Source of the DNA: the human T2T-CHM13v2.0 reference genome, Homo sapiens
Direction of reading: 5' to 3'
DNA: 64,000 bases
Assembly: GCA_009914755.4 (NCBI GenBank)
Contig: CP068257.2
Coordinates: forward strand, 19,776,001 to 19,840,000
A program made the position numbers and the translations under genes. The notes below the pieces were generated by a model that worked only from the letters and a program-made list of their open reading frames with translations, was not told where the DNA came from and did not search any database. Positions 261 through 58,856 of the stretch are shown here, piece by piece. The first letter of the stretch is position 1. Every line of letters starts with the position of its first letter.

Positions 261-448
261 ATGCCCCCAAGTTTATATCAAACCAAACAATTTATTACTC
301 TTGGGAAGGAAATCCTATCAATATAAGTTGTGATGTGAAATCGAATCCACCAGCATCAATTCACTGGAGAAGAGATAAATTAGTCTTACCTGCTAAAAAC
401 ACGACCAATTTAAAGACTTATAGTACAGGAAGAAAGATGATATTAGAG
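261..448 (+). CDS. NCAM2: NCAM2 coding exon, first half of Ig-like C2-type domain 5. Translation is (D)[62 protein letters not shown]. It enters in phase 1 (the G of the previous exon plus AT gives Asp) and ends in phase 0.
   Basis: The ORF-track frame 227..547 contains this peptide. A polypyrimidine tract and acceptor ttattacAG end at 260, and the donor GTAAGT begins at 449. The peptide is a clear paralogue of NCAM1 Ig5 (DAPKLQGPVAVYTWEGNQVNITCEV...), with the Ig cysteine (NISCDV) and N-glycosylation sites NQT, NIS and NTT. The reading frame continues exactly into the next exon. Confidence 0.9.
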
Positions 449-713
449 GTAAGTCCACATGTATACATCAATAAATTGTATTATTTTAACAACTATCTAC
501 TATTTCAGAATATATTTAAATATCTTCATATGCATATATATATATAATAAGAGAGAGAAATCATGGTGTATATATTTTACAGTTATTTACTTAAAGGTCC
601 ATGGCTCATTAATGATGAGTGTATGAATGTCTATTCACTTATATAGCAATGTGGCTATATAGCAAAGACCATTATTTTTATAAATGCACTTTTAGGAATA
701 AAAACAATTATAT

Positions 714-1001
714 GGCCGGGCGCAGTGGCTCACTCCTGTAATCCCAGCACTTTGGGAGGCTGAGGAGGGCAGATCACAAGGTCAGGAGACTGAGACCGTC
801 CTGGCCAACATGGTGAAACCCTGTCTCTACTAAAAATACAAAAATTAGCTGGGTGTGGTGGTGTGTGCCTATAGCCCCAGCTACTCAGGAGGCTGAGGCA
901 GGAGAATCACTTGAACTTGGGAGGTGGAGGTTGCAGTGAGCCGAGATCACGCCACTGCACTCCAGCCTGGTGACAGAGCGAGACTCCGTCTTAAAAAAAA
1001 A
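714..1001 (+). mobile_element. Full-length Alu (AluS/Y-like), + orientation.
   Basis: It runs from ggccgggcgcagtggctcactcctgtaatcccagcactttgggaggc to ccgtcttaaaaaaaaa. The A-tail merges into the downstream microsatellite. Confidence 0.95.
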
Positions 1002-1250
1002 TATATATATATATATATACACACATATATATATGTGTGTGTATATATATATATATATACACACACACATATATATATGTGTGTATATATATACATATAT
1101 ATGTGTATATATATACATATATGTGTGTATATATATATACACACATATATGTATATATATACATATATACATATATGTGTGTATATATATACATATATAT
1201 GTATATATATACACACATATATGTATATATATACACATATATATATGGAA
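1002..1250. repeat. Compound microsatellite of (TA)n, (CA)n and (TATATGTG)n, about 250 bp, seeded on the Alu poly-A tail.
   Basis: It is visible as alternating atatat / acacac / tgtgtg blocks. The 80-117 aa ORFs on both strands at 885-1308 are translation artefacts of this repeat (YIYIYTH...). Confidence 0.95.
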
Positions 1251-1375
1251 AATCTAGGAAGAAAAAATTGGTAATGTAATAGTTATTGAGGGATAAAAAT
1301 TTTTCCATATATATATATATGGAAAAATCTAGGAAGAAAAAATTGGTAATGTAATAGTTATTGAGGGCTAAAAAT
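1241..1375. repeat. Tandem duplication of a ~70-bp unit (atatatggaaaatctaggaagaaaaaattggtaatgtaatagttattgaggg[a/c]taaaaattt), two copies.
   Basis: Copy 1 is about 1241-1302 and copy 2 about 1309-1375. They are near-identical, differing by one substitution and a 1-nt A-run difference. Confidence 0.85.
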
Positions 1376-2169
1376 TTGTCTTCAATGTTGATGTTTTCAT
1401 TGATTCCATGTGGTATAGCTTTTTTTTCTTTTCAGTCTGGCAGGTATAAATGCTATCTGTTGGCTAGATTTTTACAATTCTAGTGTAAATTCCAAAATAA
1501 ATGAAATTTACTTGTTCAGTATCTTTTGTTTTATTACTAAAAATAAGATTTTGTATAATTATTTTTATATTGCCAAGTAATTGGCCTTTAAATACTGTCT
1601 GAATAAAGTGCCTCTTATTTATTAATTGGAGTGTATGTGTGTATCAATTTCCGAAACATAAAAAAATCTATGAAAATGATCATCACCCTTTCCAAATTAT
1701 GATGCGGTTAGGAAAATTGGGAATCTTTTTCACACAGCCTTATTTGCTGAAAGGTTGCTACATTTTATTCACTAATTCAGTTTGCATAAGCTAAAATGAA
1801 ATGCACGTTTTAGAATACCGTCTAATATCCATACTGCCTTAACTTAAAATGTCCTCATTGATGCCATTTAGACTTAAAAAAAATTCGTTTGATAGGAGGA
1901 TTTAGCCATCATGTCTGCAAATACTTGCATAGCTGGCTGGTTGGTAATTAAACCGCTATGTCTAAATCAATTTCAATATAAATAAGTTTCTTTGGAAATA
2001 TTTTAGAAGAATTAGCTATTTGTGACTTGACAGGGATGTCAATTTCATAAAAACATCTGGACAGTTTTAATCTAAATTTTATGTGTTTTACCTTAGTGAA
2101 AAGCTCAGGTTAGATTTAACTTGTTTTGTGTAGTGTGTAGTCTCCTTGAATACTTTAATAAAATACTAT

Positions 2170-2520
2170 AGACAGGATGGTTGAAATCACAGAAATTTGT
2201 TCTGAGTTCTGGAGGATAGAGGTTCAATATCATGGTGCCTGCCAGGTTGCTTTCTATAGAGGACTCTTCCCTGGACTTGTACTTGGCCGCCTTCTTGCTG
2301 TGTCCTCACATGCCCTTTCCTCTGTGCGCACACAGAGTTCTGGTGTCTTCCTTTTCTTGTAAGGATACCAGTCCTGTTGGATTAGGTCCCACTCTTATTA
2401 CCTCGTTTAACCTTAATTACCTTCTTAAAGATCCTATCTCCAAATTCATTCACACCGGAATTTAGGGTTTCAGTATATGAATGGGCAGAGTGAGGAGGCG
2501 GGCATTTCAGTCCATAGAAA
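2170..2520 (+). mobile_element. Fragment of an ancient MaLR/ERVL-type LTR (MLT1-like).
   Basis: It contains the family signature ...gttctggagg...atcatggtgcctgccagg...cttgctgtgtcctcacatg...tataaggataccagtcctgttggattaggtcccactcttat.acctc.tttaaccttaattacct.cttaaag..cctatctccaaat...ggtttcagtatatgaat. Classification is from memory, without a database. Confidence 0.5.
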
Positions 2521-56678: not shown

Positions 56679-56798
56679 CAATGGTTGTTTTGAACAACCT
56701 GGAACCAAATACAACTTATGAAATCAGGGTTGCAGCTGTAAATGGAAAGGGACAAGGAGACTACAGTAAAATAGAAATCTTCCAAACATTACCAGTTC
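56679..56798 (+). CDS. NCAM2: NCAM2 coding exon, second half of FN3 domain 1: (T)[39 protein letters not shown] plus 1 nt. Phase 1 in and out.
   Basis: A strong acceptor ttttgttttgtttttcttctAG ends at 56678 and donor GTAAGT is at 56799-56804. It lies in the ORF-track frame 56597..56806. It carries the FN3 signature Y-x-[IV]-x-V-x-A-x-N-x-x-G ([12 protein letters not shown]), compared with NCAM1 YAVRLAALNGKG. Confidence 0.9.
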
Positions 56799-57439
56799 GT
56801 AAGTAATCATCTCTATTTTTTATTCTCTTTTGTCATTTTCTTCACTTGCAAATTTAATAGATTTTAAAATGTAGGGAGATGTTTCAACACTTTTGAGACA
56901 TGAATTATGTCTTTGGTGAAGTGGTTTCTGAAGACAGTGACATCTGAGATTTATTAACATAAAAATAACTTTGCTTTAGAGCAAGGCAGAAAAAAAAGAG
57001 TGCACTAGAATACACTCAGTAAAAATTGTTCCCGGGAAATTGTCCTTATTGCAAAAGTGTCCTTCTTACTTATGGTCTGATTAATTGGATTGTAGTCTTC
57101 AGACTATATTCTGGGAGAAGAAAAATGTCTATGTAACATGTTCAATATTTTGTTCTTTTTGGAGGCCTGACTATTGACCTTGTTCCACAAATTATATGGG
57201 CTCTAAGTGTCAGAAAAGGAATCATTATGTTAATTCATTAAAACAGTGACTGCAGGAGAAGCCTTGTTCTGATAACTATCATATTTTGGGGAATTGTAAG
57301 TTAATTGAGTTTACATAGAGTGAAGATTAAATTTTAAAAGACTTAACATTTCCTTTATGTTAAATAAATTACTTTAAATGTGAGAAAACATAATAAATAC
57401 GACTGAACCACTGTTATAAAAATCTATGCGTAACACTGC

Positions 57440-57530
57440 CTGATATATATATCTTTATATATATATATATATCGTTGTATATGTGTATATATATATCTTT
57501 TTATATATATATATATGTTAGGACAGTCAA
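57440..57530. repeat. (TA)n microsatellite.
   Basis: ctgatatatatatctttatatatatatatatatcgttgtatatgtgtatatatatatctttttatatatatatatatg. Confidence 0.9.
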
Positions 57531-57635
57531 AATGGCTGCAATATATTATCTTACAGAGTATCTCTCTATTGGTAATCATAAAATCTGTCAGGTAAGTTTC
57601 TTTTCTCCATTCCCAATGCTGGTGGTTAAGATAAC

Positions 57636-57980
57636 CAGCCAGATACGGTGGCTTACACCTGTAATCCCAGCATTTTGGAAGGCTGAGGCAGGCAGATCAC
57701 TTGAACCAAGAAGCTCAAGACCAGCCTGGGTGATATAGTAAAACCCTATCTCTCCAAAAAACAATAAAAAAAGAATCAGCTGGGTGTGGTGGTATGCACT
57801 TGTACTCCCAGCTACTTGGGAGGCTGAGGTGAGAGGTGAGAAGATCACCTGAGTCTGGGGAAGTCAAGGCTGAAATGAGCCATGATCACACTATGGAACT
57901 CCATCCTGGGTGACAGAGTGAAACCCTGCCTCAAAAAAAGAATGAAGAAAAGAAAGAAAGAAAAAAGAAATGACAATAAC
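57636..57980 (+). mobile_element. Old Alu (AluJ-like) with a degraded A-rich tail.
   Basis: ccagccagatacggtggcttacacctgtaatcccagcattttggaaggctgaggcaggcagatcacttgaaccaagaagctcaagaccagcctgggtgatatagtaaaaccctatctc...gctgggtgtggtggtatgcacttgtactcccagctacttgggaggctgaggtgagag...ctgggtgacagagtgaaaccctgcctcaaaaaaagaatgaagaaaagaaagaaag. The ORFs 57475..57738 and 57588..57848 are artefacts. Confidence 0.9.
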
Positions 57981-58734
57981 CTGCTGAGAAGAAATAACAG
58001 GTCATGCCGGTTTAGAGATATGAAATCCTTTTCAGTGCATGGTCTGTTTTTCTTGGCCCTTCACATAGAAAATTCTTGCACTTTGGTAGATCCCTGTTCT
58101 ATTCAAAACAATATAAGCATCATTGTTATATGGCTATCTCTATGTTGAAGTATAATATCAAAGGCAAGTATATGAATGAACCTAGAAGAAAATGAAATAT
58201 TGAAACACAGGTCTATAAAATTGGATACTGCAAACTTTATTCAAATTTGCACCCAGGAAAGAAAATGCTTATTAAAGCACATTTACTAATTGCAAGTCAT
58301 TATCTTTACTGGTAGGTATATATTCCATACAGACTGATGTGTTAATGTATTCATATTAATAAATGCTTACAAAACATTTACAAACTAAATTTACATTAAG
58401 AAAATAAAAATGATTTAATACTATTAATAATAAGAGAAATAAAGTTTTACATTTGTGCAATGCTATACTTTTCTCAGAGCATTTGCATATCAGTGAAAAT
58501 AATATATTTGGTCCTCAGGCTACAGTTTTGGCATGACACTTCTAGATTTATAATGTTGCTGCTTCTTGGATGGGGAAAATGTTCAGAAATTATATCACAA
58601 AAGGGCAATGTCAAATGGTAAATCCAGGATAACACCATATATTTTGATTACATTACTGTTCTTTTTATTAAAATATAGTTTATCTAGGTATCTGAAATGT
58701 GTGCAAATGAAGAAATGTTGTATTGTATATCTAG

Positions 58735-58856
58735 GTGAACCAAGTCCTCCATCCATACATGGACAGCCAAGCAGTGGAAAGAGCTTTAAACTCAGCATCA
58801 CCAAACAGGACGATGGAGGGGCCCCTATTTTGGAATACATTGTGAAATATAGAAGT
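58735..58856 (+). CDS. NCAM2: NCAM2 coding exon, start of FN3 domain 2: (R)[40 protein letters not shown]. Phase 1 in, phase 0 out.
   Basis: Acceptor ttgtatatctAG ends at 58734 and donor GTAAGT is at 58857-58862. It lies in the ORF-track frame 58566..58889. The C of the previous exon plus GT gives Arg, completing LPVR|EPSPPS. It is homologous to the NCAM1 FN3-2 start (...PSAPKLEGQMGEDGNSIKVNLIKQDDGGSPIRHYLVRYRA). Confidence 0.88.

What the first reader, a model, noticed from the sequence alone, without database searches (positions are those of the whole stretch)
261..58856. Five consecutive NCAM2 exons (Ig5 to FN3-1 to start of FN3-2) spread over about 58.6 kb
The five exons splice into one uninterrupted reading frame. 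The resulting peptide is the NCAM2 paralogue of the NCAM1 Ig5/FN3 region, with cysteines, N-glycosylation sites and FN3 tryptophan/tyrosine signatures in the right places. Introns measure 8107, 13541, 34311 and 1936 bp. All domain-boundary introns are phase 1 and the intra-Ig5 intron is phase 0, the classic symmetric-exon architecture of Ig/FN3 modules. The whole window is therefore intragenic NCAM2 (chr21q21), a gene of about 0.5 Mb with known large, repeat-rich introns. This explains the absence of any other gene.
Basis: partly seen in the sequence, partly recalled or inferred. Interest (0 to 1): 0.5.

Follow-up and report, generated by a model that had tools for sequence, protein, structure and literature searches.

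The report
Five known human NCAM2 exons
The window is an ordinary, already annotated stretch of the human NCAM2 gene: five small exons for the Ig5, first FN3 and start of the second FN3 domains, separated by large repeat-filled introns.

Summary
Exons lie at 261-448, 8556-8652, 22194-22367, 56679-56798 and 58735-58856 on the + strand. Each is flanked by AG and GT(A/G)AGT, and the introns measure 8107, 13541, 34311 and 1936 bp. Spliced, they give 701 nt (2 nt plus 233 codons) with no stop.

The 233-residue peptide is 233/233 identical to solved NCAM2 structure 2JLL (E 6.7e-163, 543 bits). NCAM1 reaches only 167 bits and 50% identity in Ig5.

Contigs from human-associated metagenomes match window 1-1079 at 100%, intron and Alu included, so the DNA is human. 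Other mammals show 89-96% identity with no indels inside exons 1 and 2, falling to 44-78% with indels outside the AG/GT. A fish NCAM2 locus has five exons of identical lengths and phases, with introns 2-40 times shorter.

No further NCAM exon, Rfam RNA or non-transposon protein domain is in the window. The rest is Alu, L1 and simple repeats.

Already known; low interest.

The parts
261..448 (+). NCAM2 exon, first half of Ig5 (188 nt; enters in phase 1, leaves in phase 0). Encodes (D)APKFISNQ...RKMILE, including Cys23 and Trp35. Inferred to be exon 9 by paralogy with NCAM1.
   Evidence: AG|..|GTAAGT. 100% identical to 2jll_A. 89-90% nucleotide identity with 0 gaps to two non-primate mammal contigs, against 45-78% with indels in the flanks. 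The fish exon has the same length and phases.
8556..8652 (+). NCAM2 exon, second half of Ig5 (97 nt; phase 0 to 1). Encodes [32 protein letters not shown], including the DxGxYxC motif and Cys76. Inferred to be exon 10.
   Evidence: 96% identity with 0 gaps to L001, against 44-62% in the flanks. The lemur NCAM2-like model P0012 contains exactly this segment. The fish exon is also 97 nt.
22194..22367 (+). NCAM2 exon, first half of FN3-1 (174 nt; phase 1 to 1). Encodes [12 protein letters not shown]...RSHGVQ(T). Inferred to be exon 11.
   Evidence: 100% identical to 2jll_A and 2doc_A. Pfam fn3 covers residues 98-184. The fish exon is also 174 nt.
56679..56798 (+). NCAM2 exon, second half of FN3-1 (120 nt; phase 1 to 1). 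Encodes (T)[39 protein letters not shown](R), including the tyrosine corner. Inferred to be exon 12.
   Evidence: The lemur model P0012 contains exactly this segment. The fish exon is also 120 nt.
58735..58856 (+). NCAM2 exon, first half of FN3-2 (122 nt; phase 1 to 0). Encodes (R)[10 protein letters not shown]...[10 protein letters not shown]. Inferred to be exon 13.
   Evidence: 100% identical to 2jll_A and 2kbg_A. The fish exon is also 122 nt.
1..260 (+). 3' end of the intron upstream of E1. Holds an Alu tail with poly-A at 1-134, then the polypyrimidine tract and AG.
   Evidence: The Ig4 second-half peptide is found neither here nor in 4.77 kb further upstream in the human contig L009.
449..8555 (+). 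Intron inside Ig5 (8107 bp, phase 0). Contains Alus and an (AT)n repeat. It is colinear with a non-primate mammal contig in which the intron is 4605 bp.
8653..22193 (+). Intron at the Ig5/FN3-1 boundary (13541 bp, phase 1).
22368..56678 (+). Intron inside FN3-1 (34311 bp, phase 1). Contains an antisense L1 fragment at about 35384-36548, many Alus and a (TA)n tract of about 650 bp.
56799..58734 (+). Intron at the FN3-1/FN3-2 boundary (1936 bp, phase 1).
58857..64000 (+). 5' part of the intron inside FN3-2 (phase 0). The next exon (KDKEDQWLEKK...) is not in the window.

Best explanation
The window is a piece of the human NCAM2 gene (neural cell adhesion molecule 2, also called OCAM or RNCAM), read on its sense strand.

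Five constitutive-looking exons sit between ordinary GT-AG (U2-type) introns. Splicing joins them into a 699-nt open frame. That frame encodes the membrane-proximal part of the ectodomain:
- Ig5, from E1 and E2;
- the first fibronectin type III domain, from E3 and E4;
- the N-terminal half of the second fibronectin type III domain, from E5.

Each whole domain is bounded by phase-1 introns, so domains are in-frame modules.

Shown here: the exon coordinates, splice signals, frame and phases; protein identity to NCAM2; human origin; and conservation of the exons and their junctions.

Inferred from established knowledge: the exon numbers 9-13, by paralogy with the NCAM1 plan of two exons per domain; the chromosomal address 21q21.1; and actual use of these exons in mRNA, because the PDB construct was made from cDNA.

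The remaining 98.8% of the span is intron filled with Alu, L1 and simple repeats.
For: - Exact exon and intron coordinates, AG/GT signals and an open frame.
- 233/233 identity to 2jll_A 'Neural cell adhesion molecule 2' residues 100-332 at E 6.7e-163. Also 2xyc, 2doc and 2kbg, all NCAM2.
- NCAM1 is clearly worse: 167 bits, and 50% identity in Ig5.
- Pfam Ig (2-89) and fn3 (98-184) hits lie above their cut-offs.
- 18 homologues, those with informative names being called NCAM2, hit the window only at these five places.
- Exon-limited conservation in other mammals, with conserved AG and GT.
- Fish NCAM2 has five exons of identical lengths (188/97/174/120/122) and phases, and 145/233 ungapped identity.
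- 100% nucleotide identity over about 1 kb to contigs from human metagenome assemblies.
- Literature: NCAM2 is a 541 kb, 18-exon gene at 21q21.1 with 5 Ig and 2 FN3 domains.
Against: Nothing contradicts it. The limits are these. No tool here holds the human reference annotation, so the RefSeq junctions and the chr21 coordinates were not looked up directly. No transcript data were examined. Exon numbering is by analogy. A segmental duplicate or unprocessed pseudogene copy cannot formally be excluded, but the intact frame, intact splice sites and 100% protein identity argue against one.
Confidence: 0.98

Rival explanations
1. The exons belong to a different IgSF gene, either NCAM1 or another Ig/FN3 adhesion molecule, and only resemble NCAM2.
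For: NCAM1, titin, contactins, ROBO and others also give significant hits, because they share Ig and FN3 folds.
Against: NCAM2 matches at 100% and 543 bits. The next true paralogue, NCAM1, reaches 167 bits and 50% identity in Ig5. The homologues with informative names are all called NCAM2.
Confidence: 0.005
2. The window comes from a non-human primate orthologue of NCAM2, or from a duplicated or pseudogene copy, rather than the functional human gene.
For: Protein identity alone cannot separate human from other great apes. No reference genome could be queried.
Against: Four contigs match the window with 0 mismatches over 1079, 990, 914 and 883 nt of mostly intronic and Alu sequence; one of these (L010) carries 'human.gut.metagenome' in its record name, as do two further contigs that match at 99.9% and 99.0%. 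Chimpanzee-level divergence, about 1.2% from general knowledge, would give roughly 10 differences per kb. The frame and all ten splice signals are intact.
Confidence: 0.015

Closest known systems
Human NCAM2 / OCAM (UniProt O15394; PDB 2JLL, 2XYC, 2DOC, 2KBG)
   Same: Identical protein sequence over all 233 residues, covering Ig5, FN3-1 and the first half of FN3-2. The window is this gene.
   Different: Nothing differs. The window holds only 5 of the 18 exons reported (PMC2964649).
Human NCAM1 Ig5-FN3 region (PDB 3MTR, 2VKW/2VKX, 2HAZ, 5LKN)
   Same: Same domain order. 47/94 identity across Ig5. The three Ig5 sequons NI(S/T), N(TT/YS) and NCT fall at aligned positions. From established knowledge, NCAM1 has the same layout of two exons per domain.
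   Different: It is a paralogue on another chromosome and reaches only 167 bits. From general knowledge, not tested here: NCAM1 Ig5 is polysialylated and NCAM1 has alternative mini-exons between its exons 12 and 13. Neither is known for NCAM2.
Teleost NCAM2 (Liparis tanakae, locus L008)
   Same: Five exons of exactly 188/97/174/120/122 nt with AG/GT signals and the same phases. 145/233 residues are identical without gaps.
   Different: Its introns are 198, 514, 2936 and 932 bp, against 8107, 13541, 34311 and 1936 bp here. The human span is about 11 times longer, through repeat insertion.

Membership tests
Human NCAM2 gene | The encoded peptide is identical or near-identical to the NCAM2 reference protein | tested here: met
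   233/233 identity to 2jll_A residues 100-332, E 6.7e-163.
Human NCAM2 gene | A better match to NCAM2 than to NCAM1 or any other IgSF member | tested here: met
   543 bits against 167 bits for NCAM1 (3mtr). Identity to NCAM1 in Ig5 is 50%.
Human NCAM2 gene | Canonical splice signals and an uninterrupted frame across the joined exons | tested here: met
   Five AG acceptors, five GT(A/G)AGT donors, and 233 codons with no stop.
Human NCAM2 gene | Exon junctions coincide with the annotated RefSeq (NM_004540) junctions | not testable with these tools
   No human annotation is available here. Indirect support comes from three sources. Fish NCAM2 has identical exon lengths and phases. The lemur model P0012 uses exactly the E2 and E4 segments. 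Conservation drops at the AG/GT in other mammals.
Human NCAM2 gene | The DNA is human | tested here: met
   Four contigs match with 0 mismatches over 883-1079 nt, intron and Alu included, and three of the six contigs compared (identity 99.0-100%) carry 'human.gut.metagenome' or 'human.metagenome' in their record names.
Human NCAM2 gene | Location at chromosome 21q21.1 | not testable with these tools
   Literature only: NCAM2 is a 541 kb gene at 21q21.1 (PMC2964649; PMC8471948).
Immunoglobulin I-set/C2 domain | A Cys...Cys pair about 50-55 residues apart, a core Trp after the first Cys, a D-x-G-x-Y-x-C motif, and a profile match | tested here: met
   Cys23 and Cys76, Trp35, and DFGRYNC at 70-76. 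Pfam Ig_3, I-set, Ig_2 and ig are all above their cut-offs.
Fibronectin type III domain | A profile match above the curated cut-off, with the tyrosine corner | tested here: met
   PF00041 scores 69.4 bits against a cut-off of 25, over residues 98-184. TTYEIRV is present. The B-strand position carries Phe (KVSFNKP) rather than the usual Trp. W143 is the only Trp in FN3-1.

The most novel reading that the evidence does not exclude
One of the large introns, especially the 34.3 kb one, might hide an unannotated alternative NCAM2 exon, an intronic non-coding RNA or a regulatory element that these tools cannot see. Nothing observed points to this. Rfam, Pfam on the ten ORFs scanned (among the longest) and homologue tblastn were all negative outside the five exons.
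Probability: 0.05. Interest if true: 0.2.

Novelty: already known. Interest (0 to 1): 0.04.

Why it matters
It matters only as a clean positive control. A reader without tools recovered five exons, their phases and the gene identity correctly from raw sequence. Biologically it restates the known structure of a well-annotated human gene. The one mildly useful by-product is that exon lengths and intron phases in this NCAM2 segment are unchanged between human and a teleost, while the introns have grown about 11-fold overall.

Tried and rejected
- Looked for further NCAM2 exons in the window. A six-frame search for the next-exon peptide (WLEKK..., KDKEDQ...) found nothing. A search for the preceding Ig4 peptide found nothing in the window or in 4.77 kb of upstream human contig. 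tblastn of all 18 homologues hit only the five exons.
- Looked for other genes. Rfam at gathering threshold gave 0 hits. The ten stop-to-stop ORFs scanned, among the longest in the window, gave only L1 ORF1/ORF2 domains in Pfam.
- The large protein database does not hold full-length human NCAM2. Its hits were fish NCAM2 and ORFs called over mammalian host DNA. Full-length comparison was therefore replaced by PDB chains.
- blastn of the fish locus against the window gave only simple-repeat matches. Protein-level comparison was used instead.
- The NCAM1 hypothesis was rejected on score and identity.
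Full report
**Observation.**
Reading the window at the stated coordinates shows a pyrimidine tract plus AG immediately before 261, and GTAAGT immediately after 448. It shows AG before 58735 and GTAAGT after 58856. Stepping through the claimed intron lengths lands each time on an acceptor AG and a donor GT(A/G)AGT.

| Exon | Coordinates | Length (nt) | Intron that follows (bp) | Phase of that intron |
|---|---|---|---|---|
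| E1 | 261-448 | 188 | 8107 | 0 |
| E2 | 8556-8652 | 97 | 13541 | 1 |
| E3 | 22194-22367 | 174 | 34311 | 1 |
| E4 | 56679-56798 | 120 | 1936 | 1 |
| E5 | 58735-58856 | 122 | not complete in window | 0 |

The intron before E1 is phase 1. Together the exons total 701 nt, which is two bases completing a split codon plus 233 codons with no stop. The peptide has Cys23 and Cys76, Trp35, the motif DFGRYNC, five N-x-S/T sequons at 7, 20, 46, 75 and 163, and the FN3 tyrosine corner TTYEIRV.

**Identity.**
- The 233-residue peptide is identical at all 233 positions to PDB chain 2jll_A, 'Neural cell adhesion molecule 2', residues 100-332 (E 6.7e-163, 543 bits).
- It also matches the NCAM2 entries 2xyc, 2doc (FN3-1) and 2kbg (FN3-2).
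- The paralogue NCAM1 (3mtr, Ig5-FN1) scores 167 bits. Over Ig5 it is 47/94 identical, with the three sequons NI(S/T), N(TT/YS) and NCT at aligned positions.
- Pfam places an Ig domain at residues 2-89 and fn3 at 98-184, both above the curated cut-offs. Residues 192-233 match the start of the NCAM2 FN3-2 structure.

**Species.**
The ORF that a prokaryotic gene caller would draw across E1 (window 227-547, running into the intron) is on record in 24 public contigs. Several carry 'human.gut.metagenome' or 'human.metagenome' in their names. Four of these contigs match window 1-1079 with no mismatch over 1079, 990, 914 and 883 nt, one of them (L010) named 'human.gut.metagenome'; the two other human-named contigs match at 99.9% and 99.0%, and the stretch compared is mostly intron and Alu sequence. 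The window is therefore human DNA. The literature gives human NCAM2 as a 541 kb, 18-exon gene at 21q21.1, encoding five Ig and two FN3 domains (PMC2964649; PMC8471948). The chromosome address itself could not be tested with these tools.

**Junction support from other species.**
- Two contigs from non-primate mammals, also host DNA in metagenomes, are colinear with the window through E1, intron 1 and E2.
- Within E1 they are 89-90% identical with no gaps. In the flanking intron they are 45-78% identical, with indels. The AG and GTAAGT are conserved.
- E2 is 96% identical with no gaps, against 44-62% in its flanks.
- The alignments stop at the edges of the primate-specific Alus at 135 and 713. 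Intron 1 is 4605 bp in that mammal, against 8107 bp here.
- In the teleost Liparis tanakae NCAM2 locus, the five exons have exactly the same lengths (188/97/174/120/122 nt), AG/GT signals and phases. Their product is 145/233 identical to the human peptide without a gap. The introns are only 198, 514, 2936 and 932 bp.
- A lemur 'NCAM2-like' gene model contains precisely the E2 and E4 segments.
- The RefSeq junctions could not be consulted directly, but these independent lines make other junctions very unlikely.

**Rest of the window.**
- No other NCAM exon is present. Neither the next-exon peptide nor the preceding Ig4 peptide is found. All 18 homologues hit only the five exon positions. The window therefore begins and ends inside NCAM2 introns.
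- Rfam finds nothing at gathering threshold.
- Among the ten ORFs scanned (drawn from the longest in the window), the only Pfam domains are L1 ORF1 (RBD and dsRBD) and the start of the L1 ORF2 endonuclease. Both are antisense, at 35384-36548.
- About 16 Alu pieces and several AT-rich microsatellites make up much of the remainder.
- Non-coding RNAs that are not in Rfam cannot be excluded.

- The statement about phases is correct but incomplete.
- The 34.3 kb intron lies inside FN3-1, not at a domain boundary, and is also phase 1. The intron after E5, inside FN3-2, is phase 0.
- E3 and E4 are therefore individually symmetric (1-1) exons. E1 (1-0) and E2 (0-1) are symmetric only as a pair.
- The 'FN3 tryptophan' is not the canonical B-strand Trp, which is Phe in KVSFNKP. 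It is W143 in EIWKIV.
- Exon numbers 9-13 are an inference from the NCAM1 layout of two exons per domain (established knowledge) and from the reported count of 18 exons.

**Verdict.**
This is a correct reading of a well-known, fully annotated human gene segment. Nothing about it is surprising or new. Interest is low.

Noticed in passing
window 227-547 (+); loci L009-L014 and L001-L007: Prokaryotic-style gene calls over this NCAM2 exon, reading through the donor site into the intron, sit in public metagenome protein catalogues as 'proteins' with weak Ig_2 hits. The human version is on 24 contigs. Versions from other mammals are P0014-P0017. This is host-DNA contamination being annotated as microbial ORFs.
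   Followed up: partly
L008 371-5651 versus window 261-58856: Human and teleost NCAM2 share five exons of exactly equal length and phase. The span is 5.3 kb in the fish and 58.6 kb in human. The intron inside FN3-1 is the largest in both (2.9 kb and 34.3 kb).
   Followed up: yes
window 35384-36548 (-), probably extending through about 34000-36550: An antisense L1 fragment. Its ORF1 has Transposase_22 and dsRBD domains, and the start of the ORF2 endonuclease is present. The region 34001-36000 is strongly T-rich (AT skew -0.351). A further ORF at 9664-10014 (-) looks by eye like the L1 ORF2 C-terminus but has no Pfam hit.
   Followed up: partly
window 2-127, 716-1000, 4568-4853, 5434-5717, 14847-15116, 20124-21140, 23546-23835, 26850-30733, 40439-40701, 47441-47721, 55383-55500, 57648-57939: About 16 Alu-like pieces lie on both strands, some highly diverged. 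Alignments to non-primate mammals break exactly at the Alu edges flanking exon 1 (135 and 713), as expected for primate-specific insertions.
   Followed up: partly
window 1001-1377; 42570-43232; 63041-63088: Simple repeats. There is an (AT)n tract of about 245 bp followed by a 75-bp unit repeated 1.9 times. There is a degenerate (TA)n tract of about 650 bp in the most AT-rich part of the window (GC 0.24). There is also an (AC)24 microsatellite.
   Followed up: no
window 25376-25846 (+): The second-longest stop-to-stop ORF (157 aa) has no Pfam match. It is probably chance or an old repeat.
   Followed up: partly
P0012 (Propithecus coquereli 'NCAM2-like, partial'): This deposited lemur gene model joins Ig4, E2, E4 and the second half of FN3-2, with junk linkers. 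It omits the equivalents of E1, E3 and E5. That looks like an assembly or prediction artefact rather than a real isoform.
   Followed up: no
L013 versus window 1-826: One human-metagenome contig differs from the window at 7 positions plus one gap (99.0%), while the others are 99.9-100% identical. The cause is either polymorphism or assembly error.
   Followed up: no
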